DNA of 64,000 bases from a virus (Duplodnaviria > Caudoviricetes). The position numbers and the translations under genes were made by a program. Positions 9,138 to 55,613 of this stretch are shown here, piece after piece. Below the pieces are notes generated by a model. It was not told where the DNA came from. It worked only from the letters and a program-made list of their open reading frames with translations, and did not search any database. Numbering within the stretch: the stretch's first letter is position 1; each line of letters begins with the position of its first letter. The stretch lies in IMG/VR virus record IMGVR_UViG_2910013374_000001, positions 32,001 through 96,000 of that record; one strand, written 5' to 3'.

Positions 9138-9195
9138 CCCTGGCCCCCGTTGCGTGGCCTGGATCTGACTGCACCCGACGACTGCCGGGTCAACG
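9138..9195 (-). promoter_or_regulatory. Glutamine-II (Downstream-peptide) riboswitch
   Basis: - strand CGTTG-A-CCCGGC(agtc)GTCGGG-TGCA..TCCAGGCC-ACG-CAACG-GG-GGCCAGGG gives P1, P2 and a 3' pseudoknot; sits upstream of DUF4278 as is typical for this motif. Confidence 0.8.
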
Positions 9196-9279
9196 TGCTT
9201 TCAGTTTACCGGTCTTTGTAGCGGTTGCGACGAACGACGACTGGGAGCCTGTACGAGTTAGAACAACCCCCTCTTTCTC

Positions 9280-28074: not shown

Positions 28075-28248
28075 ATGCACGTTCCCCAGCTGGTTTATGA
28101 CCAACGGCTTGCGATCTGTAGGGGTTGCATCAGATGGCTACCAAGTGATCGCTGTAGTGCTTGTGGCTGCTTCATGTCAGTCAAGGCCAGGGCTGCACAC
28201 ATCAAGTGCCCGTTGGGGTTTTGGGAGACCTGGGCGCCGGAAGCCTGA
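28075..28248 (+). CDS. DUF6171-like Cys-rich small protein
   Basis: RLAICRGC...RCSACGCFM..K......CPLGFW. Confidence 0.75.
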   Translation: MHVPQLVYDQRLAICRGCIRWLPSDRCSACGCFMSVKARAAHIKCPLGFWETWAPEA

Positions 28249-41103: not shown

Positions 41104-41322
41104 GTGTCGATCAATAGGCCTGAACTCAAGAACACCATCGGCCATCGGTTCGCGACTGACACCGCCATCGCGTGGCGGACAAAGAACCCAATTACTGCAA
41201 GTCCACCAGACAACGTGCCCCTCTTCCCTGGGCAGTTGATCGCGGTCCGCACTGGACCCGCCAGCTGTGACCTTTACGTGGGATCCGACGACCGGTCTCG
41301 CTGGTTGAAAGTCGGAGGCTGA
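41104..41322 (+). CDS. Small tail-associated protein
   Basis: GTG 34 nt after CGGAACCCT; PGQL...LYVG...RWLKV. Confidence 0.65.
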   Translation: MSINRPELKNTIGHRFATDTAIAWRTKNPITASPPDNVPLFPGQLIAVRTGPASCDLYVGSDDRSRWLKVGG

Positions 41323-41325
41323 TCA

Positions 41326-44300
41326 GTGTCTACCGAAAGAGATCTCCTGAATGACCTCCTAAGGATTCAGGGCGAGATTCGTGCGATGGAACAGGAGGAG
41401 TACGAGCTCTCATACGAAGAGCCCGATCCTGGTCAGCGCCATGGAGGAATCGACGGCTCCGATACCTACGAGCAACGAAGCGGACTCAATTACACGGACT
41501 CGAGTCCTGCTTCCATCCCGCCCGGAACGCTCATCGTCGAGTCTCCGGCTGACGATCCTGGTGGCTTGATCTTTGCGGATCATCCCCGCCCTCAAAAAAA
41601 CAAGGACGGCTCCTGGACCGATGCTCCTTGCACGAACGGTGTCAGCTGCGCCGGTTCTGACTTCTGCTACTCGGACTACGAGTGCGACCGCTGCTCTCAG
41701 TGCGTCAACTCTCAGTGCGTTGAGATTGACCCCAATCGGCCCTGCAACTCCAACGCAGACTGCCCCTGCGCCCCAAGCGAAGACCAGAGCTACGTCTGCG
41801 AGAACACCCAGTGCAAGCTGACCTGCGCTGAGACACCAGACTGCCCGCTAGGCCAGGCCTGCAACCTTGACAGCTTTCTCTGCGAGCCAGGCTGTGAGAG
41901 CGATGATGCCTGCGATCCCAGCAGCTCAAACGCGGCTCCTGACGCGAAGTCCAACTCGATCTGCGTGAACTTTGAGTGTGTTCGGCCTTGTGAGCCGGAT
42001 CTCATCTGCAAGGGTCCAAATGACACCACGACGTGCCCAGAGGGCAGCTACTGCGGCGAACGTGTCGGCAAAGCTCAAGGTGATGGCGATGGCGAGATCT
42101 ATGCCTGTCTCGATGGCTGCTCTAAGAACGAGCAGTGCCAGCCAGAGATCTTTACCGAGCGATGCGATACCGATGTTGATCCCGATTGCTCAGACAAGAG
42201 CTACGCATACGAGACCTTCTGTGTCGACAACTCTTGCGTCAGGCCGTGCAATGGGAACGAAGACTGCCCTACGGACTTCGGCTATGGATGCGTCGCGGGA
42301 ATCTGTGAGTCCATTGGCTTCATCTGTGTTGGCGATGGCGACTGTGGAGATGGCGAGTACTGCAATGGCGATGGCCGCTGTTCCTCTGGATGCACCGGCG
42401 ACATCGATTGCCGCAAGGAATGTCCAGCACTATCGGAATGCGTTTCTACCTGTCCGCCGGAGCCCTCATGCTCTTGCCTGACTATCTATGGCGAGGACTC
42501 CCTCTGCGATCCGAACGACGATTCTTGGAAGCAATTTTGTGAGCGCGATCCTGCCTGCTTAGGTCGCTGTCCCAGGGATCCAGGTTGTCTTGAGAGCTTC
42601 AACCCCAACGCAGTCTGCGACCAAAACACCTGCATCACTCCCTGTCCTTGTGAAGAGGGTTACAAGTGCGAGGAGGTTGAAGGCAGATCCCCTCGCTGCG
42701 TTTCGGTGACCTCCCGGTCAACCATCGAGAAGTGTTGGGAATGGACCGAAGAGACAGTCGACGCAGACGGAAATATCGAGATCGTCGAGTTTCGCGAATG
42801 CGCTTTTATCAGCCCGAAGCTTGATGAGGATTTCTACGGCTGCGAGTGCGGCGAGCTGTGCACCAAGCAAGGCACGTGTGCCCCTGGTGTCTGTTCGGTG
42901 GATTCGGACTGTGAGAGCTGCAGCTATTGCGACGACGGAGTTTGCGTTCCAGGCTGTGATTCAGAGAATCCATGTGCTGCTGGAAAGTGCTGCCAGAACG
43001 ATGGCAAGTGCCACCTCCTTTGCGGCTCTGACAGTGACTGCCCTGACCCCGAGATGTGTCTGGCCGGCGGCTGTTGTGGCATTGCCTGCGAGCCCATCGT
43101 CACCTGCAATCAAAAAAGCGACTGTCCCGAAGGGAGCTATTGCTCAGGGGCTGGCATCTGCGAGGCGGGCTGCCAAGAGCAGAGCGACTGCGAGAACGGT
43201 GAGATCTGCTTCCAGTTCGGATGCGAGCAGTCATGCGGCGCTGGTTGTTTAGACGGAACGATCTGCGGTCCTGACGGATTTTGCATCAGTACTCCCAAGC
43301 CACCATGCAGTAACGACAACGACTGCACCGATGGCATCTGCCTCGATGGTTCCTGCAATTCGAATGGTTGCCGAACCGATTCAGAGTGTGGCCGCTATGG
43401 GATCTGCAGCGGTCAGACATGCACCAACTATTGCTTAGACGATGCTGAGTGCGCGTCTCTCAACACTGAGACCGAAGACTCAAGGTGCCAGCGCGACACA
43501 GGATCACAGGAAGAAATCAGGCAAAGATACGAGCGCCTCAAGTGGATGGAGGCGAACGGCCAAAATCCTGATCCACAAGAGCTGCAGCGCTACACGGCTC
43601 TGTTCAACAACCTGACAAAAGCTGGCAAATGTGCGCTTCAACCAAGTGGCATTGACAGTCCAGACGGTCGCACTGGATGCGAGTGCTACGAGAATTGCGA
43701 CGAGCAGGGTCGCTGCAGTCGATCAGTTTGTGCCAACACGGGCGACTGCGAGTGCGGCGACTGCTTAACGGACAACAAATGTGGCTACTGCAGACGAGAC
43801 CAGGACTGCAAGAACAGTCAGGTCTGCGACATTGCGGAAGGCGAGTCAGATGGAGTTTGCGCCACTCCTTGTATCCCGGCCTCACCCTGTGGCTCCGATG
43901 GTGATTGTCCGGCGGACAGCTACTGCCGACCCGACGCGTTCGGTCGAACTGAAGAAGAGGGTGGCGGTGCCCAGTGCACCCAGGGATGCCGGAGCGACGC
44001 GAGCTGCCTTCCGGGGCAGAAGTGCTACGACAACCGCTGCCTCCCTACTTGTTCGAGTGGCAGCGATTGCAATACGGACACGGAGCTATGTCTTCGTGGA
44101 GTTTGTGTTGAGGTTGGATACTCCTGCCTTTCTGATAGCGACTGTCCTTCCAGTGAGGGCTGGTGCTTAAACGGATATTGCGCGGAGGATATTCGCTGCT
44201 CTGGCGACGAGGACTGCTCAAGCTCTGAGGTCTGCAATCCCGCGACCAGCATGTGTGAGCAGGGTGATCGCTGCAGCTCGAGCAGCGATTGCAAGAGAAC

Positions 44301-47300
44301 ATGCGAGTCCGATCTTGACTGCGGCAATAAGCAGTGCGAATCAGCTGCCGACTGCACTGAACCTGGTCAGACCTGCAAGCAGTTCGGTTCTGTTGGCATC
44401 TGTGTCGGCGGTTCGGACTACGGAGCCTGCTCTTCTGGTCTTTGCATTGGTGGCAGTTCAGACAATCGCTACTGCGACACAAGAGGCGTCTGCCAGCAGG
44501 GTGAGGCCTGCAACAGCGACAGCGACTGCAACTTTCCCAAGAGCTGCTACAACGGCGGCTGCCAGTTCAAGCGTCGCTGCAACGGCGACAGCCAGTGCCA
44601 GCAGGGAGAGTTCTGTGACGCAGGTTTCTGTGCTGGCGATAACCGCTGCGACGGCGACTATGACTGCGTTGAGGGCTACGCCTGCAACCAGTCAGGACGT
44701 TGCTTCAACGACGATCAGCGGGTCACCGCTATTGAGATTGGCTGCGAAGACTGCCAGATCTGCAACCCCACCACTTTCCGCTGCGGGAATGAGGTTTGTC
44801 CGGGCGACGGCGACAACGGTGACAACGGCGACGAATGCCTGTCCGATAGCGACTGCGAAGCAGGCAAGTGCGTCTGCGATGGCTCTGGAGAAGATCGCTC
44901 ATGCCAGTGCATCGAATGCCGCAACGATCAGGACTGCGCGGATGCTTATGGCAGCGGGGACTTGGTTTGCGTTGAAAATGTTTGCGAGACCCCTTGCTAC
45001 ACGGGGCTTTCGACCGGCGACTGTTTCACCGGCCTCTTCTACGGAGACACCTGTGGCAACTGCCCCGACAAGTGCCCAGGAAATGCTGTGTGCACAGAGG
45101 TCGACAAGGTCTGCGGTACTTACGAGATCTTCGTAGAAGGCAAGGCCTATACGCGTCCAATCCTTTGCAAAGAGTGCGTCGGCAATTGCCAGGCCGACAG
45201 TGACTGTCCTGACGATTCGATCTGCTCCAACTCTGGCGCCACGAGCGGCCAGTGCGTCTCGTTCGATGGAACCTGTGACACCGATCTCGACTGCCAGAGG
45301 TTCAACAGCAAGTTCGGCGAGTCCATGTACTGCATGAACAACAAATGCGAAGTGGGTGAGACCTGTATCGGAAGCTCTGACTGTTCAGGACAAGAGCTCT
45401 GTGGTGGTGAAGGCTTCTGCAGGAAGGGGGTCTGCCTGGAGGATGAAGACTGCGGTGGCGGGCGCACTTGCGTCTTTGGTGCCTGTGAATTCACCTGCGA
45501 GGTGCAAGCCCTTGTCTGTGAGTGCAGTCTCGACCCCTACAGCCCTGGAATTTTGTGCCCAGAGGGATACAACTGCAACTGCGATACCAACCTCTGCAGT
45601 CGTGAGGGCTACCCCGGTATCGAGCCGACCATGGACGCGGAGTCTTGCCCAAGTGGCACTTTCTGCGACACGGCAAGAAAAGGCTGCAGGCCATTCATTC
45701 AAGGCCAGCTGGAGTGCTTCACCGATGCTGGCTGTTTTGGAGCAAAGACCTGCGAAAAAGGCCTCTGCGTTTCTCGGGATGAATTTGGAGAAGAGGTTCC
45801 CGATCCCGATCTGGGCGACAATCGCGACAACGCTAAAGCTGCTGACAACTGCGAGCCTCTCGACAAATGCTGCAACGACGAGGGGTTCTGTGACGACTGC
45901 CCCTGTGATGATGAGCACCCTTGCCAGGAAGGCTGCTGTGACCCGGAGTCGGGCTTATGTATCGACTTCAATGAGCACCCTCAAACAGAACTCGGAGCTC
46001 CCGAGTCCTGCACTTTTGGAGAGGTCTACTGCGAAGTTTTAGGTCCAGAAGGTGATCCACTCGACGTTGTGGTTCTTGGCAAAGGCAAGGGCTACCAAGG
46101 TTGCGAATTCGTCTACGAGGACGAAGATGGCATTCCGCTGAAAGATGGTGAGCGCCGCAAGGTCTGCTGGTCTGGCGCCGATCTCAGCTCGGCGCAGACA
46201 TACAAGCTGCTCGTTCAGGAATGCAAGGCCGAGCAAGAAGAGGACAAAGAATGCGAGTGCGATGAAGTGCCTCCAGAAGAAGACGAGTGCTTCCGCAATA
46301 AAGACTGCGGGAATTGCATGGTCTGCAGGTCTAAGACCTGGCAGAGCACTCCCTGCTGCCCAGTAGCGGATGAGGCTGGTAACGACAGCGTTACGAGAAA
46401 TCTCTGCCGTGCTGTCAATGGAACTTTTGAAGAAGAAGCGCCTGACGAGGACGAGGAATGTGGTTGCTTGTCCGCTTCTGACTGCGGACCCTGTGAGGCC
46501 TGCAACTTCAACGGCTTAAACGGTGAAGAGGGCAGGTGCGTGGCCAAGTGCGAGGAGCTGTGCCCCGATGGAGGCGAACTCAGTACTGGCGGAAAGTGCC
46601 CAACCTGCGAGGAGAGGTTCGGTAAGTGCGTCGAGGGAGTTTCAGCCACAGTTAAACCTGCAGGCGTTGATCCAGAAACTGGACAAGCGGTTCCGGCGGT
46701 TACGAAAAGCACTTGCCAAGTCAAGGACGCGAACCAGTGCTGCAGTGGTTTCAGTACTCCTGAAGAGGCAGGCAAAAAACGCGACTCTTGCGAGCTAAAA
46801 ACAGAGACGGATCAGAACGGCAACCTGGAAACCATCGAAGTCCCCTGGTGTATCGACTTCGACGCGGGCATCTGCGCTGGTTGCACAGAAGACAGCCACT
46901 GCTCTGGCAATAAGACCTGTAGGGGCTACCAGTGCGTCGTTCAGTGCGGCCAGGAAAATGCTGTTGATCCTGAGGCCGGTGACTGCTCTTGCTGCACCGA
47001 CGATGGCCAATGCAAAGAGCTCTACGAGAATTGGACAGAATCCCGCGCAAGCGGTGACGAAGGCCAAACCAGACCGTGCTCGTGCACACAGAATGGAATT
47101 GATTGTGCTCCTTACCAAGAAGCAGAGTCCTGCTACGCCTGGGTTCGAGTTGATGGCGGGGAAGGTGGAGATGGTGATCAAGCCAAGGCTGATCGCGACA
47201 AAAATCTTGAGCAGTTGGATGAGTATGAGAAACAAGAACCCTTGCTTCGCTTCGATCTTGAGGATGCGTTGGCCGCTGTCCCTGATGCTTGCATCAACCA

Positions 47301-49362
47301 AGACATCGTCGATGGGGAGCTAGTTGACTCTTCACGATGTCAATCAGCAAGAAATAGTGCAGCGCAAGCTGATAAAAATCTACAGGACAACCTCGGATAT
47401 CAACGCCAGCTTTCGCAACAGTTAAGGAACACGATTTACAGGCCTGCGGAATTCAAACAGGTCAGGAAATGCCAGTGTTGCGTTGATGGCATGTGTCGTC
47501 CTGAGGATGAGTGCACCTACGGAACTTGCTACCTCTGCGTCAAGAAACCGTCCAGCTACTTCCGGGCAGCTCTTTACACATCTGTTCTAGAGACTGAAGT
47601 CTGTACAGGTTGCACTGACCTGAATGGAAACACCCCTGCTCCTGGCGGCTGCACTATCGGGGAATTGGGCGAGGGATATAGCGGTGGAACGAATTCCGTT
47701 TATTTCAGCAGCGAGGAAGGGGACTGTGTGAAATACCGCTGCGAGGATGGCATCTCATGGGTGGATGAGCTTTGCACTGGAACCAATACTTCTTGGTATG
47801 ACTACTGCTACGGATCAATCATTGGATGTGTCTTCTCCTGCCGTGACAATCCCAGCGGAGGCAACACCAGCTTCTACAACTATTGGAACGGTTGGAAATA
47901 TGACATCGACTGCTCAGAGGCGGGCACGTATGCCTACAACAAGAACACAGAAGGCGATGGTGCAGATCCAAAGAAAGGCATTCGACTAAGCAAACCTGAG
48001 GAGGATAAGTTCAAGACAGCTTGCGCTTATCCGAATCCGACCGGGTGTATCCAAGGTAATTGGCTCGTTAGATACACCTCCCTTGTTCAGATCCATCCCT
48101 GTTGCCATGAGGCAATCATCTATCACGAGTGCGATCCGGAGCATCCGAACTGCGCTGCAGGACTAGAGCTCCTGTTTGAAGCTGGCGACAAGACTGGGAT
48201 CTTGAAGCGTCTGGAGGCTCAGATCAAGGCTCTGGAGAGATATCTTGAAAACCTCGACGAGGTGACGGAGCAACTCAAAGATCTCAAGGATGTTACGGAC
48301 AGAGATATTGAGCAGCTTGAAAGAGATCTGGAAAATGCAGAGATTGATGATGACAAACTTGAAGATGATTTGATCAATGCGGAGGGCTTTATTCCACAGA
48401 TTGAGGCCGATATAAAAAATCAAGAGCCCAAGGTTGAGAGTGCTACAGAGAAGCGAGATGAAGAATCAGAACAGCTTGAGGAGAGCAAGGATAAGATTGA
48501 AGAGTTGTCGATCGAGAAGGACGAACTAACAGAAGTGCTGACTATTCTCGAAGAAGACTTGGAGAACGCTCAGTCCAACAAAAATAGTTCTAAAGCAGCG
48601 GCGGAACGCAAACGGAAGGAACTAATAAAGTTGAAGAATCAGCTAGCTATTCTTGGTCAAACAATTGTTGACTACGGCTGCGAATGTCCAGGCGATTCCG
48701 ATTGCGGCGAGCTTCCCAATGCTGACAGTCTTGAATGCTTCAATCTCCTGGAGGAACGTGAAGCATTGGAGATTCGGGCTGATGAAGTTGAATCAGAAAA
48801 GGATTTTCTAGAAGGTGAACGAGATTCCTATGCGGATGAGGAAGCAGAAATCAAAGTTGAAATAAAGCCGATCAAAGATGAAATCAAGGAGCTCGAAAAG
48901 AAAATCAGCATAGAGCAGAGAAACTATCAAGTTTATTACAAGATTCTTGCCGATGCTCAGTACAAGCTTGATGAGGCGATTGCCGAGCTTGGATCCCTCA
49001 ACAATGAACTCCTATCTACAAATCAAGAGGTCATCCGCCTCACTAAGCTTCTAGAAAGGGACGTGGTCCTCGACGAAGTTGGAGATATCGAGGAACAGAT
49101 TGCCAAGAAAGAAGAAATCCTTTCCAATATCGAAAACAGCAATCAAGAAATTGCAAACGAGAAGACCGAATCTGAATCAGAACTTTCTGCGAAAGAGTCT
49201 GAGTTCGACCGCTTGAAAGATGAGCTCGATGTCCCTGTTGTTCCCGAAGCCTCTGGCCCTCCTGCGGAAGGGAAGACCATGAAGGAGCTCAACGAGGAGT
49301 ACAAGGAGGTGATTGAGGAAGATAAGAAGAAGGGAGAGGACAAGTGGTATCCAGGGCGCTAG
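41326..49362 (+). CDS. Giant cysteine-rich repeat protein with C-terminal coiled coil
   Basis: 2678 aa; dozens of CxxDxDCxxGxxCxxGxC repeats; about 350-aa acidic heptad region. Confidence 0.9.
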   Translation: MSTERDLLNDLLRIQGEIRAMEQEEYELSYEEPDPGQRHGGIDGSDTYEQRSGLNYTDSSPASIPPGTLIVESPADDPGGLIFADHPRPQKNKDGSWTDAPCTNGVSCAGSDFCYSDYECDRCSQCVNSQCVEIDPNRPCNSNADCPCAPSEDQSYVCENTQCKLTCAETPDCPLGQACNLDSFLCEPGCESDDACDPSSSNAAPDAKSNSICVNFECVRPCEPDLICKGPNDTTTCPEGSYCGERVGKAQGDGDGEIYACLDGCSKNEQCQPEIFTERCDTDVDPDCSDKSYAYETFCVDNSCVRPCNGNEDCPTDFGYGCVAGICESIGFICVGDGDCGDGEYCNGDGRCSSGCTGDIDCRKECPALSECVSTCPPEPSCSCLTIYGEDSLCDPNDDSWKQFCERDPACLGRCPRDPGCLESFNPNAVCDQNTCITPCPCEEGYKCEEVEGRSPRCVSVTSRSTIEKCWEWTEETVDADGNIEIVEFRECAFISPKLDEDFYGCECGELCTKQGTCAPGVCSVDSDCESCSYCDDGVCVPGCDSENPCAAGKCCQNDGKCHLLCGSDSDCPDPEMCLAGGCCGIACEPIVTCNQKSDCPEGSYCSGAGICEAGCQEQSDCENGEICFQFGCEQSCGAGCLDGTICGPDGFCISTPKPPCSNDNDCTDGICLDGSCNSNGCRTDSECGRYGICSGQTCTNYCLDDAECASLNTETEDSRCQRDTGSQEEIRQRYERLKWMEANGQNPDPQELQRYTALFNNLTKAGKCALQPSGIDSPDGRTGCECYENCDEQGRCSRSVCANTGDCECGDCLTDNKCGYCRRDQDCKNSQVCDIAEGESDGVCATPCIPASPCGSDGDCPADSYCRPDAFGRTEEEGGGAQCTQGCRSDASCLPGQKCYDNRCLPTCSSGSDCNTDTELCLRGVCVEVGYSCLSDSDCPSSEGWCLNGYCAEDIRCSGDEDCSSSEVCNPATSMCEQGDRCSSSSDCKRTCESDLDCGNKQCESAADCTEPGQTCKQFGSVGICVGGSDYGACSSGLCIGGSSDNRYCDTRGVCQQGEACNSDSDCNFPKSCYNGGCQFKRRCNGDSQCQQGEFCDAGFCAGDNRCDGDYDCVEGYACNQSGRCFNDDQRVTAIEIGCEDCQICNPTTFRCGNEVCPGDGDNGDNGDECLSDSDCEAGKCVCDGSGEDRSCQCIECRNDQDCADAYGSGDLVCVENVCETPCYTGLSTGDCFTGLFYGDTCGNCPDKCPGNAVCTEVDKVCGTYEIFVEGKAYTRPILCKECVGNCQADSDCPDDSICSNSGATSGQCVSFDGTCDTDLDCQRFNSKFGESMYCMNNKCEVGETCIGSSDCSGQELCGGEGFCRKGVCLEDEDCGGGRTCVFGACEFTCEVQALVCECSLDPYSPGILCPEGYNCNCDTNLCSREGYPGIEPTMDAESCPSGTFCDTARKGCRPFIQGQLECFTDAGCFGAKTCEKGLCVSRDEFGEEVPDPDLGDNRDNAKAADNCEPLDKCCNDEGFCDDCPCDDEHPCQEGCCDPESGLCIDFNEHPQTELGAPESCTFGEVYCEVLGPEGDPLDVVVLGKGKGYQGCEFVYEDEDGIPLKDGERRKVCWSGADLSSAQTYKLLVQECKAEQEEDKECECDEVPPEEDECFRNKDCGNCMVCRSKTWQSTPCCPVADEAGNDSVTRNLCRAVNGTFEEEAPDEDEECGCLSASDCGPCEACNFNGLNGEEGRCVAKCEELCPDGGELSTGGKCPTCEERFGKCVEGVSATVKPAGVDPETGQAVPAVTKSTCQVKDANQCCSGFSTPEEAGKKRDSCELKTETDQNGNLETIEVPWCIDFDAGICAGCTEDSHCSGNKTCRGYQCVVQCGQENAVDPEAGDCSCCTDDGQCKELYENWTESRASGDEGQTRPCSCTQNGIDCAPYQEAESCYAWVRVDGGEGGDGDQAKADRDKNLEQLDEYEKQEPLLRFDLEDALAAVPDACINQDIVDGELVDSSRCQSARNSAAQADKNLQDNLGYQRQLSQQLRNTIYRPAEFKQVRKCQCCVDGMCRPEDECTYGTCYLCVKKPSSYFRAALYTSVLETEVCTGCTDLNGNTPAPGGCTIGELGEGYSGGTNSVYFSSEEGDCVKYRCEDGISWVDELCTGTNTSWYDYCYGSIIGCVFSCRDNPSGGNTSFYNYWNGWKYDIDCSEAGTYAYNKNTEGDGADPKKGIRLSKPEEDKFKTACAYPNPTGCIQGNWLVRYTSLVQIHPCCHEAIIYHECDPEHPNCAAGLELLFEAGDKTGILKRLEAQIKALERYLENLDEVTEQLKDLKDVTDRDIEQLERDLENAEIDDDKLEDDLINAEGFIPQIEADIKNQEPKVESATEKRDEESEQLEESKDKIEELSIEKDELTEVLTILEEDLENAQSNKNSSKAAAERKRKELIKLKNQLAILGQTIVDYGCECPGDSDCGELPNADSLECFNLLEEREALEIRADEVESEKDFLEGERDSYADEEAEIKVEIKPIKDEIKELEKKISIEQRNYQVYYKILADAQYKLDEAIAELGSLNNELLSTNQEVIRLTKLLERDVVLDEVGDIEEQIAKKEEILSNIENSNQEIANEKTESESELSAKESEFDRLKDELDVPVVPEASGPPAEGKTMKELNEEYKEVIEEDKKKGEDKWYPGR

Positions 49363-49398: not shown

Positions 49399-49959
49399 AT
49401 GCAGACCCCTGATTGGACTCACTTCCGCTCAGCGGACACCGACCCCGCCGGCCCCGCATGTCTGCTTGCGACCAGCTTCAGCTTGAGCGAACTACCTAAG
49501 AACTACATCTGGACAATTGGCTATATCGGCCAATGGCTTGGCCCTGAAGAGGCTGAGATCAACGCGCAGGTCAAGTCCTATTCAAGGGAGTACTTGATCC
49601 AGAGGGCTGAGGAGCTTGAGTCCAAAAAGAACGAAGCAGTGCAGAAGCAGCAACAGCTAGAAGCATTGCGACAACAGAGAAACAGCGAGCTGGACCGCCT
49701 CACCAAAGCGAACCTCGGTTTCAAAGATGAAGATGCCATCAAGCAGAGGGTCGAAGCGGGTCCGTTGAAGATGGCTCGAAGCCTGGTGAAGTCGGCCGCT
49801 GACCTGGCGACGGGCGGTGTTACCGATCCAACCGCTCGGATGGAGATCTGCAACACCTGCCCTTTCAAGGGTGACGATCAACGCTGCGGCAAGTGTGGCT
49901 GCTTCTTACCTGCCAAGACCAGGGTCAAGAAATCAAGCTGCCCGATCGGCCGTTGGTAG
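49399..49959 (+). CDS. Coiled-coil protein with C-terminal DUF6171-like Cys domain
   Basis: RMEICNTC...RCGKCGCFL..K......CPIGRW. Confidence 0.8.
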   Translation: MQTPDWTHFRSADTDPAGPACLLATSFSLSELPKNYIWTIGYIGQWLGPEEAEINAQVKSYSREYLIQRAEELESKKNEAVQKQQQLEALRQQRNSELDRLTKANLGFKDEDAIKQRVEAGPLKMARSLVKSAADLATGGVTDPTARMEICNTCPFKGDDQRCGKCGCFLPAKTRVKKSSCPIGRW

Positions 49960-49997: not shown

Positions 49998-52900
49998 GTG
50001 GCAAAGCTCGATCAGATACTCCTGAAGACGAGCAACCTGAGCCAGAGGGATCTGATAGATACCCTCGAAGGTAGAGGGAGAGATAGTCGAAATAGAATTG
50101 AAAAAGGCGAGACCGTTCTTCGCTATACCGGTGCTGGCAGGCTCGGCCCGGAAGGCGAGACGGTAAACGAGTCCCCTGGTCAAGTCGAATTCTGGACAGT
50201 CAACGACAGCGAGGAAGCTGTTCAGATCTACGTGGATTTCGGAGCTGAGATTCCGCCTTGGTCGACCTCCGAGCTGCAAGAAGCCAGCATCGGTCTCCTG
50301 AAGGACGTCGACATCCTCGATGGCGCCAGCGGCGGCGAGCTATTGCTGCAAGCTGGCAAGGTTCTCACCTGGGACGGCGCCAAGCTTGTGCTGCGCGATC
50401 CACCAGGGGTAGGGGAAGGCGCCAAGATCCTTGAGTCCCTGAACAATGTTGGTGACGTCAACTATGGCTTTTACGCAATATCCCTGAACAAGTTTGGACC
50501 TGAGGGTGGCGACATTCTCCTCTACAAGTTCAACAACCTGTCCTCAAAATATGAATGGGCACCGACCAAGTTTGAGATCGATCTGTTCGATGAATTCACG
50601 ACCCGGAATCGGTTTCTCGTCTTCAACAGGACTGTCCACAAGGGCATCGAGTTTGGGAATCTCACATCTACTGCGACGTCATCTGCGCGTTTCTCGGACG
50701 CTGGCGGGGCATCCATGCTCTTCAACCAGTACAGAGGTAGGAATCTCAGCAACCGAATCCATGGCGTCGAAGCCAGTTCTTTCGGTTCCATCAATCTGTC
50801 AGTCCGAGACGGTGAAGACATCGTCATCAAACTTGGGGATGGCTATGCAAACAATGAAGGAAAACCTGGCGCTCTTAGATACGAGCGGATCGATGATGTT
50901 CCTTTAACTATTACTGACGAGAGATACTTCGCCACGCTCAAGCACGTCAATCAAGCGATACGTGATTCGGACCTTAACTTCCTCAACAACGTCAATGACA
51001 CTGGGATCATTCAGGGACAGGTTTTGTCCTGGGATGCGATCAGACAGGAATACATCCCAACATCGGGGATCGCTCCAGACCTTTCTCAGGCTTCGATCGA
51101 GAGCCTCGAAGACGTCAATGCTCAAGCCAAGGGTCGCGGCAAGCCCCTGACCTGGAACGACACAGATAACACTTGGATCCCTGAGACTTTGAGGTCGAGA
51201 GATCTTGAGTGGGACTACAACCCAGAAGGTTTTGGCAATGGGGTTTTCTCAGAAGATGATCCTCTTGGAGAGGGTTATTGCGAAGAATGCAAGGAAGAGA
51301 CTCTCGGCCAATTCACGGTTGCCAGAAACAAGGCTTATGTCTGCCTGAGAACTAGAGATCTCAATTCCAGTACGGGGAATTTCGAATCCACCTATGACTG
51401 GGTCAAGATCCTGGTCGACGGCTACAACCTGACCGAAAATCGCCGTCAATACGCTCCGAACGAGTACAGGCAGGCCTATGGCTTCGAGAAGCGAAGGGAT
51501 GCCCTTTCTCCGGCTGCCTACGAGGGAACTCTTGGATCGCTAGCCAACGTCAGTACTGCTGACGTTTTCCCAGGTGCTGCTCCTATCTACAACGCCTCGA
51601 CGTCCTCCTTCGAGATGGGCTTCCCGGCTCTAGACCTGCAGAGCTATTCGGTAGGAGCGCTCGGCGATGTCAATCTCACCGGCGCTGGTGTGGGCTACGG
51701 ACTGCTGTGGAACGGCGAGCAGTGGTACGCCAGCAGCCTGGACCAGAAAGTACGACTTGATGATCTTCAGGATGTTCAATTTGGATCCTTAGGTGTTACC
51801 AACACCAAGATGGTTGCGGCGTTCATGCTTACGGACTCCCCGGCACTTGGCCCTACTTTTGTTTACAACCAAGACGTCTCTACGACCCTCGCTGTTTCGA
51901 CTCCAAAGGACAGCTACTTCCCAGGTTCCACGGCCTACGCCCGCTGGGGAGAAAATGCTTTTGGTGGTGGTCAAGCTCCTACTCAAGGTGGAACCTATTT
52001 CTTCAACTGGAGATCTCAGCCACCGATGTCAGTGGCCGAGATTCTTGACCTCTACATTCGCTGGCCGAAGGACAACTCCTGGCAGACGATCGACGGTGAT
52101 GGTGTCATCGAGCTGTACTTCTATCCAACGCAGCTCCTCGACACCAGGACACTTTTCCGTCGCGTTTCTCTGCTCCCAGGCACCGGCGGCTACATCCTGC
52201 AACTCGATCAGACAGGCGCCTTGCGCTTTGCCGTGTCAGCACCTTCCGGCGAGATTGGCTTCACGATTTCAACGGTTTCCAACTTCATCTCGACTAACAA
52301 CTGGCACCACGTCGCTCTTGTTAAAGAGGGAGCATCCAACAGGATGTATGTCGACGGGGATCTTGTAGGCGAGGCCCTAAGCACCACCCCTTGGACAGGT
52401 GACGACATGTTCGTCATGGGTCGGAACGACCTCGATGACAACAATGTTCTGACGCATCATTTCTTCCGTGGTGTCATGTCTGACCTGAGGGTCACCAAAG
52501 GACGCAGCAAATACAGCGGAAACTCTTATTCGCAGCCTGCATCAATCGAAGCTGAGATTATTGACACCACCCCGAATGCTGGCGATTTTCTTAGTTACGA
52601 CGGCACAAGGTGGACCAATGTTTCTGGCGTTGAGGGCGACATCAGCAACAAGTCGATCAATGAACTTGCAGATGTAGATACCGGCACCAACGACCCAGCA
52701 CAGGGTGATGCCTTGGTCTGGACTGGCGCAGCCTGGGAGCCTGGCATTCCTGGCATTGGCGCCACGTGGTCGTTGAACGACATGACAGATGTCGAGACCT
52801 TCTATCAATCAGGAACTCCTTCGATTCGCTTCTCTCAGGCCGAGAAGCTCAATTTCAGCAATGCCTTCAATGCAAGTGATGACGGGGGCTCGATAAGCCA

Positions 52901-55613
52901 GGCCCGCCAGGGGAACCAGTCCTTCGGGATTGTGACCCAGTGGAACGACTGCAGTCATGTGTGCGGGTCAGGAAGCCCCTGCGGGAACGACGGCCCGTAC
53001 GCCAACGGCAGCACTTCTTACATCATGCCCACGAACAAGGGGCAGGTGATCGTCCGAGCTGAGCGGATGACGATCTCCAACGTCTTCCAGGATTGCAAGC
53101 TCGTTCCAGACACTTATCACGAGGATGCCCTTCACTACGCCGGTTGCCCCGATCGAGGAGAAAGTGATGGAAATGATCTTCCAGGAACCGTTCCGGAGAC
53201 CTATATCCCCGCCTGGGGTGTCATCCAGGACCACGTTGACGAGATCCTGCCCTACGGCAAGCTCCGCCAGCTAGGCGATGTCGCGGCGACGCTTCCCACC
53301 CTTGGTCAAGCCCTGGCATGGAATGGTGTCGAGTGGGCTCCTACCAGCACGATCGCTGCAGATGTCTCGAATAACGAGCTGAATGATCTGGGCAATGTTG
53401 ATTGCTTAAGCGCTGTTCTCGACGACTTCCTGGTTTACGACGGTCAGTCCTGGAGGAATACACCCTTCAATGTGCAACTCCGTGATCTCACGGACATGAG
53501 CGTTGAACGGTTCTATGTCGACGAACCGTTCAATACAACGAACATGAGGAATCCGCCTCGTGTCATCAACAACGTTGACCAGAACGATCGACTCAGTGAT
53601 GGGCTCATCTCAAGTGGATACAGAGGGATGCAGTGGGCCGGTGGTGCATCGGTCGCCACTCACGAAAACAAGACCACAACTCTTACCTCGGGCAAACAGA
53701 CAGGAACCCAGGTGCCGAATTGGACCTGGATCGAGCTGAATTCGTATTTCATACGCTTTGCCGGACATGGCCAGAACTGGGGAAGCCAGGGCTTACTGAT
53801 CGGTGACAACCTGCTGATCAGGTACGAGAACCAAAACCGCGACCTCAATGACTATGGGCTTTTTGATGTAGCACCTAAAGGCGTTCTAGTCGATTACATC
53901 GACCTTGGACTAGCGAACCTTGACTTGTCACCAAATACGCTCGAGCAGCTCGGAAACGTCGATACCGCTGGAAAGGCTCCGGGCTATGCCCTTGTCTGGG
54001 ATGGCACCAATTGGTCAGCTTCTCAAGGGGTAGCTGTTGACGTCAGCCTTACTTCTGTTGGCGAACTTCGTGACGTCACCAAGACTGAGAATTCAGATCT
54101 AAGTACAAACGATGGGGTTCTGAGTTTTGATGTCGGCGAATTGCGCACGAATGCACCGCAAGAAAACCTTGGCGGCATCGAACTCACCAATGAGAACCGG
54201 ACAGCACGGATCGGATGGTCTGGAGTCTGGGGCGGTTCTCCGATCATGGCCAACTCGGCCTATTCCTTGCTTCCTTCTTTTGTCCGCGTCCAAGAGCTGG
54301 AAATCCAGGTTCAAGCAGCTGGTGGTCTCCGTTACACCACCTCTCCTGGCTTAACCGACTCGACCATCCCTGCTTGGTCTCAGGTCAAGCAACAGATTGC
54401 AAGACAGGCGGCGGACTACACGGCGCTGTTCTTTATGGATGGCAACAGCTTCACTGAACGGAACTACGGCTGGCCGCTGGATGTTCAAGTCACGTCGCAG
54501 CCCAATCCGCAGTACTTCTCACCATTTGCTGATCAGTACTCATACAACCTGCGAAAAATCAACCAGGACAAGATCACGTGGTCCACTGATGATGGCGCTC
54601 CTTTCCTTTGGAACACCGACACGCTTTGGTCAATGGAGATGTGGGTTTTCATCTCCGCGTCAGATGCCAGCGATGGGAAGCTTGAGTACATCCTGGCGCC
54701 GAAAGATAGAGGCTCGGGGCAATCCAAAGGGCTTCATATCGGCCTCTGCGGGGATCAACGAAACCTCTTTTTCTTCACTCTTGACACTGCAAGCAATGAA
54801 AGTAACAGGCCCGCTAGCGGCTCTTTAACTGCTGAGGGCAACTTCGACGCTTGGAACCACGTTTATGTCGCGCACGAAGGTTCGGGCCGTCATCGCTTCT
54901 ATCTCAACGGCCAGCTTGTCAATACGATTCAGCGAAACAGTGCCTTCACGATGCCTGGAGGCCTGGCTTTTGGTGGCCAGGAAAATTCCAATGGTCAAAA
55001 CGCTAACGGCTATCTAAGCGCCGCTTTAGATGACATTCGATTCACCAAGGGCTGGCTTCCTTACGCCACTGACACAAGCAATGTCCCGGTCCCTGTTGAA
55101 CCGCTTCCCCCTGGTGCATGGAAAGCGGTCTTCGGCTCTCTTGACGCCTTGGAGGATGTCCAGTCCTCGGGGGCTTACGAGCCGTCCAACGGTCAGGTCC
55201 TGCAGTGGAACAACGTCGCTAAGGCTTGGAGGCCTGGACCTCTTGAAGCTGTCGCCTACGACGTCAGCTCCAACTCACTCACCGACCTCGTAGACGTCGA
55301 CACCACCAACTCGGTGCCCGACCAGGATGACGTTCTGCGCTGGGATGCTGCTCAAGCTGCCTGGCGTCGAAGCAAGGTCGATGGAAACGGAGGCATCACT
55401 CCCTTGGTGCAGCGAACTGCAACTCCTGGAGTTATCCCCAACCCTTCGATACTGAAGGCGGGTGAGCTGTTCTTGAACATGGCTGACCAAGTTCTCTACG
55501 CCCTGGACTCAGCTGGAGAGGCCTTCGCTTTTGCGACTGGTCAACTCGATGAGGACGGAATCCTCAGCGCAGTTGACACCACGTACGACCGCGTGGTCGG
55601 AGGAACCTTCTGA
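49998..55613 (+). CDS. Long tail fibre protein with two LamG/concanavalin-like domains
   Basis: Repeated L.DL.DV..G..L.W..W spacers; WHHVALVK..MYVDG and WNHVYVAH..FYLNG; C-terminal GELFLN domain and VVGGTF end. Confidence 0.85.
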   Translation: MAKLDQILLKTSNLSQRDLIDTLEGRGRDSRNRIEKGETVLRYTGAGRLGPEGETVNESPGQVEFWTVNDSEEAVQIYVDFGAEIPPWSTSELQEASIGLLKDVDILDGASGGELLLQAGKVLTWDGAKLVLRDPPGVGEGAKILESLNNVGDVNYGFYAISLNKFGPEGGDILLYKFNNLSSKYEWAPTKFEIDLFDEFTTRNRFLVFNRTVHKGIEFGNLTSTATSSARFSDAGGASMLFNQYRGRNLSNRIHGVEASSFGSINLSVRDGEDIVIKLGDGYANNEGKPGALRYERIDDVPLTITDERYFATLKHVNQAIRDSDLNFLNNVNDTGIIQGQVLSWDAIRQEYIPTSGIAPDLSQASIESLEDVNAQAKGRGKPLTWNDTDNTWIPETLRSRDLEWDYNPEGFGNGVFSEDDPLGEGYCEECKEETLGQFTVARNKAYVCLRTRDLNSSTGNFESTYDWVKILVDGYNLTENRRQYAPNEYRQAYGFEKRRDALSPAAYEGTLGSLANVSTADVFPGAAPIYNASTSSFEMGFPALDLQSYSVGALGDVNLTGAGVGYGLLWNGEQWYASSLDQKVRLDDLQDVQFGSLGVTNTKMVAAFMLTDSPALGPTFVYNQDVSTTLAVSTPKDSYFPGSTAYARWGENAFGGGQAPTQGGTYFFNWRSQPPMSVAEILDLYIRWPKDNSWQTIDGDGVIELYFYPTQLLDTRTLFRRVSLLPGTGGYILQLDQTGALRFAVSAPSGEIGFTISTVSNFISTNNWHHVALVKEGASNRMYVDGDLVGEALSTTPWTGDDMFVMGRNDLDDNNVLTHHFFRGVMSDLRVTKGRSKYSGNSYSQPASIEAEIIDTTPNAGDFLSYDGTRWTNVSGVEGDISNKSINELADVDTGTNDPAQGDALVWTGAAWEPGIPGIGATWSLNDMTDVETFYQSGTPSIRFSQAEKLNFSNAFNASDDGGSISQARQGNQSFGIVTQWNDCSHVCGSGSPCGNDGPYANGSTSYIMPTNKGQVIVRAERMTISNVFQDCKLVPDTYHEDALHYAGCPDRGESDGNDLPGTVPETYIPAWGVIQDHVDEILPYGKLRQLGDVAATLPTLGQALAWNGVEWAPTSTIAADVSNNELNDLGNVDCLSAVLDDFLVYDGQSWRNTPFNVQLRDLTDMSVERFYVDEPFNTTNMRNPPRVINNVDQNDRLSDGLISSGYRGMQWAGGASVATHENKTTTLTSGKQTGTQVPNWTWIELNSYFIRFAGHGQNWGSQGLLIGDNLLIRYENQNRDLNDYGLFDVAPKGVLVDYIDLGLANLDLSPNTLEQLGNVDTAGKAPGYALVWDGTNWSASQGVAVDVSLTSVGELRDVTKTENSDLSTNDGVLSFDVGELRTNAPQENLGGIELTNENRTARIGWSGVWGGSPIMANSAYSLLPSFVRVQELEIQVQAAGGLRYTTSPGLTDSTIPAWSQVKQQIARQAADYTALFFMDGNSFTERNYGWPLDVQVTSQPNPQYFSPFADQYSYNLRKINQDKITWSTDDGAPFLWNTDTLWSMEMWVFISASDASDGKLEYILAPKDRGSGQSKGLHIGLCGDQRNLFFFTLDTASNESNRPASGSLTAEGNFDAWNHVYVAHEGSGRHRFYLNGQLVNTIQRNSAFTMPGGLAFGGQENSNGQNANGYLSAALDDIRFTKGWLPYATDTSNVPVPVEPLPPGAWKAVFGSLDALEDVQSSGAYEPSNGQVLQWNNVAKAWRPGPLEAVAYDVSSNSLTDLVDVDTTNSVPDQDDVLRWDAAQAAWRRSKVDGNGGITPLVQRTATPGVIPNPSILKAGELFLNMADQVLYALDSAGEAFAFATGQLDEDGILSAVDTTYDRVVGGTF

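What the first reader, a model, noticed from the sequence alone, without database searches (positions are those of the whole stretch)
41326..49362. 2678-aa cysteine-packed protein in a phage tail module
Seen: about 2,200 aa of acidic CxxDxDC..C..G.C repeats (very roughly one residue in six is Cys; not counted), no signal peptide, and helical hairpin inserts. The C-terminal heptad region has two arms of about 160 aa around a CECPGDSDC...C turn, suggesting an antiparallel coiled coil. Such repeats recall secreted EGF/Dickkopf-like or myxobacterial proteins, yet a phage protein must fold in a reducing cytoplasm. Inference: a large Ca/Zn-stabilised or post-lysis-oxidised appendage for adhesion, buoyancy or shielding.
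Basis: partly seen in the sequence, partly recalled or inferred. Interest (0 to 1): 0.75.

Follow-up and report, generated by a model that had tools for sequence, protein, structure and literature searches.

The report
Giant disulfide-rich cyanophage tail protein
A 2,678-residue tail-module protein of a P-SS2-like cyanophage prophage is built from about fifty small four-cysteine modules otherwise known only from secreted proteins, which raises the testable question of how a virus assembled in the cytoplasm forms up to about 150 disulfide bonds.

Summary
The ORF is real and is one gene (41326-49362, +, GTG start). It encodes 2,678 aa (290 kDa, pI 4.1, net charge about -321) with 298 Cys.

Across 17 full-length orthologues, 232 of 298 Cys are invariant, against 88 of 2,380 other residues. 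Eight Cys pairs are lost strictly together, which points to disulfides rather than Cys4 metal sites.

The unit C-x2-D-x-D-C-x4-6-C-x3-5-C matches DUF7107/Dickkopf_N repeats of secreted bacterial proteins by profile comparison, but scores below both Pfam cut-offs. It also weakly matches LDL-receptor class A modules and knottins.

AlphaFold2 gives confident arrays of a short 3-10 turn plus a beta-hairpin.

Regular repeats cover only residues 102-1400, not 2,200 aa.

Best reading: an exposed, disulfide-stapled tail-tip appendage that displays variable coiled-coil stalks. Its oxidation route, position on the virion and ligand are unknown.

The protein family was listed in 2009 as an unknown structural protein. 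I found no description of this architecture.

The parts
41326..41628 (+). Cys-free acidic N-terminal region (residues 1-101). It has a conserved amphipathic first helix and a G-T-x-L...G-E-V-x-W-A-type segment. Presumed to attach the protein to the tail tip.
   Evidence: No Cys before residue 102. L7, L8, R19 and G67 are invariant in 17 orthologues. No signal-peptide-like hydrophobic stretch. The attachment role is inferred.
41629..45525 (+). Regular array of four-Cys modules, C-x2-[DS]-x-[DE]-C-x4-6-C-x3-5-C (residues 102-1400). It is 15.7% Cys and has extra inter-module 'staple' Cys pairs.
   Evidence: Unit HMM finds about 30 clear and about 20 weak copies. AlphaFold2 of residues 496-1000 gives mean pLDDT 83.8, with a 3-10 turn plus beta-hairpin per module. 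Cys are invariant. Paired losses. hhalign to DUF7107 segments gives 98% probability.
43450..43632 (+). First helical-hairpin insert (about residues 709-769). It is present in 8 of 17 orthologues and replaced by 6-12 residues in the other 9.
   Evidence: AlphaFold2 helices at 725-743 and 750-761. Insert lengths per orthologue.
45526..47475 (+). Irregular Cys-rich region (residues 1401-2050, 10.5% Cys). It includes a second helix / Cys-bounded loop / helix insert at about 1950-2040, which is 107-285 aa long among orthologues.
   Evidence: Composition. Conserved Cys columns. Insert lengths. The secondary structure of this insert is read from sequence only.
47476..48192 (+). Beta-rich, aromatic-rich, Cys-containing globular domain (residues 2051-2289) at the base of the stalk.
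   Evidence: AlphaFold2 strands across 2052-2287, mostly pLDDT 80-92. No family or Atlas lead. The fold is not identified.
48193..49224 (+). Antiparallel coiled-coil hairpin stalk (residues 2290-2633). Its arms of 160 and about 165 aa would span about 24 nm, and the tip loop CECPGDSDCGELPNADSLEC lies at 2450-2468.
   Evidence: AlphaFold2 helices with pLDDT up to 95. Foldseek and VIA hits are only to SMC, Rad50, MukB, chemoreceptor and dynein-stalk hairpins. This is the least conserved part, at 23-27% identity to the closest orthologue. Tip Cys content varies from 5 to 27.
49225..49362 (+). Conserved C-terminal tail (residues 2634-2678, ending W-Y-P-G-R) plus the stop codon. Presumed to pack back onto the beta domain.
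   Evidence: K2623, P2637, P2640, L2655 and W2674 are invariant or nearly so. 45% identity to the closest orthologue, against 23% in the stalk. The packing is inferred from the hairpin topology.
41104..41322 (+). 72-aa ORF directly upstream. It is the counterpart of P-SS2 gp083, a minor virion protein.
   Evidence: 57-67% identity to the same position in P-SS2 and three IMG/VR loci. P-SS2 ORF083 gave 2 peptides in virions.
49399..49959 (+). 186-aa partner gene with a coiled-coil middle and a C-terminal DUF6171-like Cys cluster (C-x2-C-x9-C-x2-C-x-C-x14-C-P-x-G-x-W). Candidate non-virion assembly factor.
   Evidence: Always directly downstream of the giant gene, at 57-68% identity. DUF6171 and phrog_13558 matches. 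P-SS2 ORF085 gave 0 peptides in virions. The function is inferred.

Best explanation
This is the orthologue of P-SS2 gp084. It is a low-copy virion protein of the tail-tip and fibre gene block of a P-SS2-like temperate cyanosiphovirus, here present as a provirus.

The chain has five parts:
- A Cys-free N-terminal region of about 100 aa, presumed to attach it to the tail tip.
- A backbone of about 2,200 aa made of small modules whose Cys form intra-module and module-to-module disulfides. This could give a highly acidic, protease- and shear-resistant rod or beaded string. A length of order 100 nm if extended is my own estimate from module sizes and was not measured.
- Two inserted helical hairpins of variable length that project from this backbone.
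- A Cys-containing beta domain.
- A terminal antiparallel coiled-coil stalk of about 24 nm whose tip carries a variable Cys-bounded loop or knob.

The conserved scaffold most likely holds these fast-evolving stalks and tips out from the tail, to make first contact with the picocyanobacterial surface or another ligand.

The protein has no export signal and the provirus encodes no thiol oxidase. The disulfides are therefore most likely closed late, either in the dying cell or in oxic, Ca-rich seawater after lysis. The local, short-range pairing pattern would make unassisted oxidation feasible. The conserved downstream DUF6171 Cys-cluster protein may keep the chain competent until then.

Shown:
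- gene, family, synteny
- virion presence of the orthologue
- Cys conservation and pairwise loss
- module type
- predicted stalk

Inferred:
- disulfide state in virions
- position on the tail
- extended shape
- binding role
- timing of oxidation
- chaperone role of the neighbour
For: Gene and family:
- P-SS2 gp084 matches over residues 1-2404.
- There are 17 full-length orthologues of 2,660-3,506 aa.
- An exhaustive HMMER scan of 1.84 billion representatives found only 16 hits below 1e-30, all giant orthologues or fragments of them.

Virion protein:
- P-SS2 ORF084 is listed as 'unknown structural protein' with 43 peptides. ORF085 had 0 (PMC2784084).

Tail context:
- The major tail protein, a 2,154-aa tape measure protein and fibre-like genes with lectin domains surround it.
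- The block 144-738-813-112-145-93-72-GIANT-186-1871 is conserved in P-SS2 and three IMG/VR loci.

Structural Cys:
- 232 of 298 Cys are invariant, against 88 of 2,380 other residues. Cys number is even in 13 of 17 orthologues.
- Eight pairs are lost together in the same sequences. The 123/148 pair is absent from two orthologues, P0003 and P0006.

Module type:
- Distant hits are secreted bacterial proteins with DUF7107 and Dickkopf_N repeats.
- hhalign of phage double units against those DUF7107 segments gives 98% probability, E 6e-14.
- A profile of the units hits VLDLR class A modules at E 6e-6, and knottins and Dkk4 weakly.
- Foldseek gives local matches to the EETI-II knottin (target TM 0.75) and Dkk4.
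- All of these solved relatives are disulfide-bonded extracellular modules.

Structure:
- AlphaFold2 mean pLDDT is 83.8 and 81.8 for the two segments.
- The stalk model matches only antiparallel hairpins.

Exposure and diversification:
- The giant protein is 29-35% identical between loci, while its small neighbours are 57-85% identical.
- The stalk is 23-27% identical to the closest orthologue, against 50-60% elsewhere.
- The helical inserts and tip Cys knobs vary as cassettes.

Precedent:
- Cyanophage Pam3 has DTT-sensitive, MS-confirmed disulfides linking its fibres to the baseplate (PMC9942802).

No viral oxidase:
- No Erv/ALR, DsbA or glutaredoxin is encoded. Thioredoxin folds occur only with the class II ribonucleotide reductase.
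Against: - No direct evidence exists for disulfides in any virion of this family. The P-SS2 proteomics reduced and alkylated the samples.
- I could not read Cys-Cys distances from the models, so the connectivity within the basic four-Cys unit is unknown.
- The position on the virion is inferred from gene order only.
- No receptor-binding fold was recognised in the beta domain or the tips.
- Fast divergence of a coiled coil can reflect weak constraint rather than selection.
- Forming roughly 149 correct disulfides without a catalyst is demanding.
- pTM is 0.45 for both models, so the overall shape (rod or compact) is not established.
- Virion incorporation has not been shown for this particular provirus.
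Confidence: 0.55

Rival explanations
1. The Cys are metal ligands rather than disulfides, either Zn(Cys)4-type or other thiolate clusters. The protein would then fold and stay reduced in the cytoplasm, and the virion would carry a metal-stabilised rod.
For: The protein is made in a cytoplasm without an export signal. No viral oxidase was found. Each unit has four Cys. The neighbouring DUF6171 proteins look like zinc ribbons. A weak PDB profile hit to Nab2 zinc fingers has E 0.17.
Against: C-x5-C is the dominant spacing (94 of 297 gaps), with only 22 CxxC. There are only 10 His in 2,678 residues. Cys are lost in twos, not fours, and across module borders. All sequence and fold relatives with solved structures are disulfide modules: LDL-receptor class A, knottin, Dkk. 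The related repeats occur in secreted proteins.
Confidence: 0.15
2. It is a virion protein but not an adhesin. It would be a passive structural or protective element: a polyanionic brush or strut that stiffens or spaces the tail-tip fibres, prevents aggregation or sticking to particles, or raises particle durability in seawater.
For: Extreme negative charge of about -321 at pI 4.1. No recognisable receptor-binding domain. Several other long fibre genes with lectin-like domains lie downstream and could do the binding. Disulfide-rich modules are typical of mechanically and proteolytically robust proteins, which is general knowledge.
Against: The stalks, their tips and the inserts vary as cassettes while the scaffold is fixed. 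The protein diverges much faster than its neighbours. That pattern is more usual for host-facing parts.
Confidence: 0.2
3. It is an internal or ejected protein, such as a second tape-measure-like or tail-lumen protein or a head-associated protein, rather than an external appendage.
For: A weak PHROG hit to a tape measure family (phrog_2335, E 3e-5) and long helices. A DUF6171 gene precedes the true tape measure gene and another follows this gene.
Against: The hit covers only the coiled coil (2294-2609) and is of the compositional kind, as are the SMC and Rad50 hits at 35 bits against cut-offs above 500. A bona fide 2,154-aa tape measure protein is present upstream. A chain of knotted disulfide modules and a folded hairpin stalk is ill-suited to passage through a tail tube, which is inference. 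The gene lies among distal fibre genes.
Confidence: 0.07

Closest known systems
Cyanophage P-SS2 gp084 (ORF084, 2,613 aa; Sullivan et al. 2009, PMC2784084)
   Same: It is the orthologue. Homology runs over residues 1-2404 at 29% identity. It has the same position in the same gene block, including the upstream 72-aa gene and the downstream 186-aa gene. MS found it in virions.
   Different: [quoted passage not shown] The paper has no occurrence of the word 'cysteine'. The present copy sits in a provirus and differs in stalk, insert and module number.
DUF7107 (PF23416) and Dickkopf_N (PF04706) Cys-rich repeats of secreted bacterial and eukaryotic proteins
   Same: The motif is the same, C-x2-D-x-D-C-x2-G-x2-C-x2-G-x-C in tandem. 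Profile-profile probability is 98%. There are reciprocal weak HMMER hits.
   Different: The phage segments stay below both Pfam cut-offs: 21.4 against 24.6 bits, and 17.2 against 25. The carriers of the known repeats have secretion-type domains (PPC, LTD, Por_Secre_tail). The phage protein has no signal peptide and is made in the cytoplasm. DUF7107 itself has no known function.
LDL-receptor class A modules and squash-type knottins (for example VLDLR LA repeats, EETI-II)
   Same: They are small disulfide-bonded modules with C-x5-C and acidic residues. The unit profile hits VLDLR at E 6e-6. The local fold match to EETI-II has target TM 0.75 and rmsd 0.6 A over 24 residues.
   Different: The alignment to LA modules is out of register with the phage unit. 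LA modules have 6 Cys and a defined Ca cage, whereas the phage unit has 4 Cys. There is no global structural match.
Disulfide-linked tail fibres of freshwater cyanophage Pam3 (PMC9942802)
   Same: It is a cyanophage tail appendage whose integrity depends on disulfides formed without a known viral oxidase. This was shown by cryo-EM, MS and DTT treatment.
   Different: Pam3 uses a handful of inter-subunit disulfides on ordinary folds. Here the whole 2,200-aa backbone is made of Cys modules. There is no sequence relation.
Antiparallel coiled-coil hairpins of SMC/Rad50/MukB, chemoreceptors and the dynein stalk
   Same: The predicted architecture is the same: two helices of about 160 residues fold back on each other, with a functional element at the apex.
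   Different: There is no ATPase head, hinge, zinc hook or microtubule-binding domain. The NCBIfam scores are far below the cut-offs. The tip Cys are not conserved. The likeness is of shape, not of family.

Membership tests
P-SS2 gp084 family (giant Cys-rich virion protein of P-SS2-like cyanosiphoviruses) | Full-length sequence homology with a conserved Cys scaffold | tested here: met
   tblastn covers 90% of the query at E 0. Among 17 orthologues, 232 Cys are invariant.
P-SS2 gp084 family (giant Cys-rich virion protein of P-SS2-like cyanosiphoviruses) | Conserved position in the tail-tip gene block, between the 72-aa gene and the 186-aa DUF6171 gene | tested here: met
   The order is the same in P-SS2 and in three IMG/VR loci.
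P-SS2 gp084 family (giant Cys-rich virion protein of P-SS2-like cyanosiphoviruses) | Presence in purified virions | not testable with these tools
   This is shown only for P-SS2 itself, by MS with 43 peptides. This provirus has not been induced or analysed.
DUF7107 (PF23416) | Score at or above Pfam's gathering cut-off | tested here: not met
   The whole protein gives no hit. The best 200-aa segment scores 21.4 bits against a cut-off of 24.6.
DUF7107 (PF23416) | Tandem C-x2-D-x-D-C...C...C motif with profile-level similarity to bona fide members | tested here: met
   hhalign of phage double units against DUF7107 segments of P0037-P0049 gives 98% probability, E 6e-14. Cys-rich composition may inflate this score.
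Dickkopf_N (PF04706) | Score at or above Pfam's gathering cut-off | tested here: not met
   The best segment scores 17.2 bits against a cut-off of 25. The Dkk4 N-terminal structure is only a weak local fold match, with probability 0.44.
LDL-receptor class A module | Six Cys and a C-terminal acidic Ca cage (C-D-G-x-x-D-C-x-D-G-S-D-E) | tested here: inconclusive
   The unit profile hits VLDLR LA repeats at E 6e-6, with high bias and in a shifted register. The phage unit has 4 Cys and only D-x-D. Pfam gives no LA hit.
Tail length tape measure protein | Homology to tape measure families beyond coiled-coil composition, and position directly after the tail tube and chaperone genes | tested here: not met
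   Only phrog_2335 matches, at E 3e-5, and only over the stalk. The true tape measure gene at 28272-34736 scores up to E 3e-88 and holds the canonical position.
SMC/Rad50 family | ABC-type ATPase head, and a hinge or a CxxC zinc hook at the coiled-coil apex | tested here: not met
   Scores are 35 bits against cut-offs of 567-1087 and cover helices only. The apex has C-E-C-P-G-D-S-D-C, and its Cys are present in only 6-41% of orthologues.

The most novel reading that the evidence does not exclude
Virions of this phage lineage carry a protein with up to about 150 structural disulfides that cannot form in a normal reducing cytoplasm. Infectivity would then depend on an undescribed oxidative maturation step. 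This could be a phage-driven redox shift or catalyst in the infected cyanobacterium, for which the conserved DUF6171 CxxC protein next door is a candidate. Alternatively it could be an extracellular, post-lysis 'curing' of the tail appendage in oxic, Ca-rich seawater. In either case a module class known only from secreted proteins would have been recruited into a cytoplasmically assembled tailed phage.
Probability: 0.3. Interest if true: 0.85.

Novelty: new variant of a known kind. Interest (0 to 1): 0.66.

Why it matters
Structural proteins of tailed phages are normally Cys-poor, because they fold in a reducing cytoplasm. Here the tape measure protein has 0 Cys in 2,154 residues, while its neighbour has 298.

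A conserved virion protein built from disulfide modules of the secreted-protein type challenges that rule. It also makes one question directly testable in a culturable system, P-SS2 on Prochlorococcus MIT9313: when and how do phage particles acquire their disulfides, and does redox state gate adsorption or stability in the sea?

The protein also offers a natural example of a very long, modular, cross-linked scaffold that displays variable coiled-coil stalks. That is of interest for phage host-range biology in the most abundant marine phototrophs and for protein engineering.

Tried and rejected
- Pfam, NCBIfam and PHROGs on the whole protein gave only coiled-coil-type hits.
- Foldseek against the PDB with the repeat model gave no match at E <= 0.001. 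VIA-align against 48,161 chains gave nothing above Z 3.4, and those rows cover only the helical insert.
- phmmer of residues 801-1085 against PDB sequences found nothing.
- The beta domain (2051-2289) could not be identified. Pfam gave nothing and the ESM Atlas gave no usable hit. In the fold searches the coiled coil filled the lists.
- The N-terminal 100 aa might be a paralogue of the upstream 93-aa protein. BLASTP found nothing. hhalign aligned only the first 20-residue helix, at probability 1.5%. I rejected the idea.
- A Rad50-like zinc hook at the stalk tip was rejected because the tip Cys are not conserved.
- A search for a phage-encoded oxidative-folding enzyme found no Erv/ALR, DsbA or glutaredoxin. 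The two thioredoxin-fold hits lie next to or fused to a class II ribonucleotide reductase and are most simply its reductants.
Nothing can be said.
The picocyanobacterial host is inferred from the nearest phages and from a Glutamine-II riboswitch in the window.
- Literature searches for DUF7107, or for Cys-rich or disulfide-rich phage fibres, found no description of this protein.
- A global analysis of Cys co-occurrence over all variable columns was too noisy because of alignment gaps. Only the near-invariant Cys gave clean pairs.
Full report
**The sequence**

The window encodes one uninterrupted ORF at 41326-49362 on the + strand, 2,678 aa from a GTG. Orthologues begin with the same helix (M..DLLNDLL.IQ.EIRA.E), so this start is right and the database version that begins at Met21 is 20 residues short.

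The composition is extreme:
- 298 Cys (11.1% overall). The first is at residue 102 and the last at 2471.
- 15.7% Cys in residues 102-1400.
- 20% Asp plus Glu, a net charge of about -321, and pI 4.1.
- A mass of 290 kDa.

There is no hydrophobic N-terminal or transmembrane stretch. Every other large structural ORF of the 106-kb provirus has 0-0.9% Cys, and the tape measure protein has none in 2,154 residues. The feature is therefore not a compositional accident of the genome.

**Where it sits**

The record is an IMG/VR provirus of 106,484 bp that CheckV rates 99% complete. The identical protein is also on record from a 2.73-Mb contig, so this is a prophage in a small bacterial chromosome.

The nearest isolated phages are the Prochlorococcus siphovirus P-SS2 and Synechococcus siphoviruses. 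The major tail protein is 52% identical to P-SS2 gp076. The window also carries a Glutamine-II riboswitch, a class I know from marine picocyanobacteria and their phages.

Upstream lie the major tail protein and a 2,154-aa tape measure protein with PHROG E-values down to 3e-88. Downstream lie long fibre-like genes with ConA/laminin-G lectin domains.

The block 144-738-813-112-145-93-72-GIANT-186-1871 aa is conserved gene for gene in P-SS2 and in three IMG/VR contigs.

**What is known about the family**

The P-SS2 orthologue is ORF084/gp084 (2,613 aa, 29% identity over residues 1-2404). Sullivan et al. [quoted passage not shown] The downstream ORF085 gave none (PMC2784084).

The samples were reduced with DTT and alkylated before digestion, so those data say nothing about redox state. 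The paper never mentions cysteine.

The family is rare:
- 17 full-length proteins of 2,660-3,506 aa were found in 5.8 billion clusters.
- 16 hits fell below 1e-30 in an exhaustive HMMER scan of 1.84 billion representatives.
- Three loci were found in IMG/VR.
- Only P-SS2 was found among 50,697 phage records.
- No orthologue was found in one genome per species of 185,579 species.

**The cysteines are the structure**

In the alignment of 17 orthologues (33-54% identity), 232 of 298 Cys are invariant, against 88 of 2,380 other residues. Most of the remaining invariant positions are Gly, Asp and Pro. Thirteen of 17 orthologues have an even number of Cys.

Among the Cys that are nearly invariant, losses come in twos in the same sequences. 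The pairs are 123/148, 440/448, 508/532, 555/583, 787/810, 1263/1281, 1664/1712 and 2049/2057. The 123/148 pair is absent from two orthologues, P0003 and P0006.

Several of these pairs are the 'extra' Cys of C-x-C or CC doublets in adjacent modules, so they look like module-to-module staples. Pairwise gain and loss is what disulfides predict, and it is not what Cys4 metal sites predict.

Three further observations point away from zinc:
- C-x5-C is the dominant spacing (94 of 297 gaps).
- There are only 22 CxxC motifs.
- There are only 10 His in the whole protein.

**The module**

The repeat unit is about 20-25 aa: C-x2-[DS]-x-[DE]-C-x4-6-C-x3-5-C. There are 18 exact C..D.DC motifs. An HMM built from the units finds about 30 clear copies and about 20 weak copies, nearly all between residues 114 and 1390. 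Beyond that point the protein remains Cys-rich but is irregular.

No Pfam, NCBIfam or PHROG family reaches significance on the whole protein.

The weak tail of the exhaustive search consists of secreted bacterial proteins. They carry DUF7107 and Dickkopf_N repeats next to PPC, LTD, Por_Secre_tail and Ig-like domains. One of them sits beside an RHS toxin gene in a bacterial MAG. The only relatives in the genome collection are Myxococcota proteins.

Phage segments match DUF7107 and Dickkopf_N just below the cut-offs: 21.4 against 24.6 bits, and 17.2 against 25 bits. A profile-profile comparison of phage double units with bona fide DUF7107 segments gives 98% probability. A profile of the units also hits VLDL-receptor class A modules at E 6e-6 in a shifted register, and hits knottins and Dkk4 weakly.

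Formal Pfam membership is not met, and DUF7107 has no known function.

**Predicted structure**

Residues 496-1000, folded with 27 aligned sequences, give mean pLDDT 83.8. Each unit is a short 3-10 turn at D-x-D-C followed by a beta-hairpin. A two-helix hairpin is inserted at 725-761.

There is no global PDB match. The local matches are to the EETI-II knottin (target TM 0.75), the Dkk4 N-terminal region, megalin/LRP class A repeats and TNFR Cys-rich domains. A Foldseek-independent search found nothing above Z 3.4.

Residues 2040-2678 give mean pLDDT 81.8 and contain the following:
- a beta-rich domain at 2052-2287
- a helix at 2290-2449
- a 19-residue loop, CECPGDSDCGELPNADSLEC
- helices at 2469-2577 and 2581-2633
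- a small conserved C-terminal element

All significant fold hits are intramolecular antiparallel coiled coils: SMC, Rad50, MukB, chemoreceptor and dynein stalk, with Foldseek probability up to 1.0 and VIA Z up to 14.8. The best viral hit, C7F4D0_2 at E 1.6e-20, is unnamed and is probably the P-SS2 protein; I did not check this.

At 0.15 nm per residue the stalk would be about 24 nm long, which is arithmetic on the model. pTM is 0.45 for both models, so the overall shape of the array is not established. I could not read coordinates, so I have no Cys-Cys distances.

**What varies**

The Cys scaffold is fixed, but the helical parts behave as cassettes:
- Insert 1 is 42-49 aa in 8 orthologues and 6-12 aa in the other 9.
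- The segment 934-1097 is seven Cys modules in the query's clade. In nine of the orthologues it is 62-127 residues with only 3 Cys, and in three it is only 13-14 residues.
- Insert 2 ranges from 107 to 285 aa.
- The terminal stalk ranges from 399 to 561 aa, with 5 to 27 Cys in its tip region.

Against the closest orthologue, the stalk is 23-27% identical while the rest is 50-60%. Across related loci the giant protein is 29-35% identical while its small neighbours are 57-85%.

This pattern fits an exposed, host- or environment-facing protein. Weak constraint on coiled coils is an alternative explanation.

**How it most likely works**

I read it as a low-copy tail-tip appendage with three working parts:
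- an N-terminal region that presumably attaches it to the tail tip
- a long, acidic, disulfide-stapled modular backbone
- projecting coiled-coil stalks whose variable tips make contact with a ligand, most plausibly on the picocyanobacterial surface

The protein has no export signal. The provirus encodes no Erv/ALR oxidase, DsbA or glutaredoxin, and its thioredoxin folds go with the class II ribonucleotide reductase. The disulfides are therefore most likely closed late, either in the lysing cell or in oxic seawater. Short-range, mostly local pairing would make that feasible.

The conserved Asp residues of the motif and the LA-module likeness leave Ca binding open.

Cyanophage Pam3 provides a precedent for functional, DTT-sensitive disulfides in a cyanophage tail (PMC9942802).

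The conserved 186-aa neighbour has a coiled coil plus a DUF6171 Cys cluster, and its P-SS2 orthologue is absent from virions. It has a paralogous small gene just upstream of the tape measure gene, in both this provirus and P-SS2. That placement suggests assembly factors for long helical or Cys-rich tail proteins, but this is inference. The Atlas shows only that such proteins are common in tailed phages.

**Rivals**

- A metal-thiolate reading is possible but disfavoured, for the reasons given above.
- A passive structural or anti-fouling role cannot be excluded, because no binding fold was recognised.
- An internal, tape-measure-like role is unlikely. The true tape measure protein is present, and the similarity is confined to coiled-coil composition.

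**Verdict**

- The protein family has been on record since 2009 as an unknown virion protein. I found no description of its architecture, Cys conservation, module kinship or the redox problem it poses.
- I class it as a new variant of a known kind: a phage tail appendage built from a module class otherwise seen in secreted proteins.
- The scan had noted this same stretch in another window (e1-5884234), but only its title was shown to me, and it did not change my reading.

Noticed in passing
window 28075-28248 (+) and 49399-49959 (+); L001 4238-4390: Two paralogous DUF6171-like Cys-cluster domains (C-x2-C-x8-9-C-x2-C-x-C-x13-14-C-P-x-G-x-W). One is a small ORF just upstream of the tape measure gene, and the other is the C-terminus of the 186-aa gene after the giant protein. 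The upstream copy also exists in P-SS2, in an unannotated 75-codon frame between gp076 and gp077.
   Followed up: partly
window 41326-41385: The database version of the giant protein starts at Met21 (2,658 aa). Conservation of the first 20 residues in orthologues shows that the GTG at 41326 is the real start.
   Followed up: yes
window 9138-9198 (-): A Glutamine-II riboswitch aptamer (RF01704, 43.2 bits against a gathering score of 33) lies inside the provirus. This fits a picocyanobacterial host.
   Followed up: partly
G000:C1:21096-24067 (outside the window; L005): A class II (B12-dependent) ribonucleotide reductase carries an N-terminal thioredoxin-fold domain with a CEPC motif. It is preceded by a 97-aa thioredoxin-like protein with an unusual CGWC motif. 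They are probably dedicated reductants of the reductase. These are the only thioredoxin-fold hits among the redox families searched (Erv/ALR, thioredoxin, glutaredoxin, DsbA) in the provirus.
   Followed up: partly
G000:C1:103641-106484 and 762-1706 (outside the window; L007, L008): A tRNA-Met gene lies at 103641-103716, next to a 481-aa minus-strand ORF with no NCBIfam hit that could be the integrase. An M23-family peptidoglycan peptidase ORF runs to the record's end. A lambda Bet-like recombinase lies near the other end. The provirus borders were not mapped.
   Followed up: no
L001 22874-23431 (P-SS2 gp085): The RefSeq record names this 186-aa protein 'DNA-directed RNAP'. Nothing here supports that name: it is the conserved DUF6171 Cys-cluster partner of the giant gene, and it gave 0 peptides in virions.
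   Followed up: partly
window 26787-27983: The frame of the major tail protein stays open after its TAG stop into the 136-aa ORF at 27573-27983. Another reader of this scan proposed stop-codon readthrough here. I only noted that the two ORFs share a frame.
   Followed up: no
window 49998-57958: The 1,871-aa and 781-aa proteins after the partner gene carry ConA/laminin-G-type lectin domains (PF13385; E 6e-24 in the first, but only E 1.2e-3 and below the cut-off in the second). They are better candidates for conventional receptor-binding fibres.
   Followed up: no
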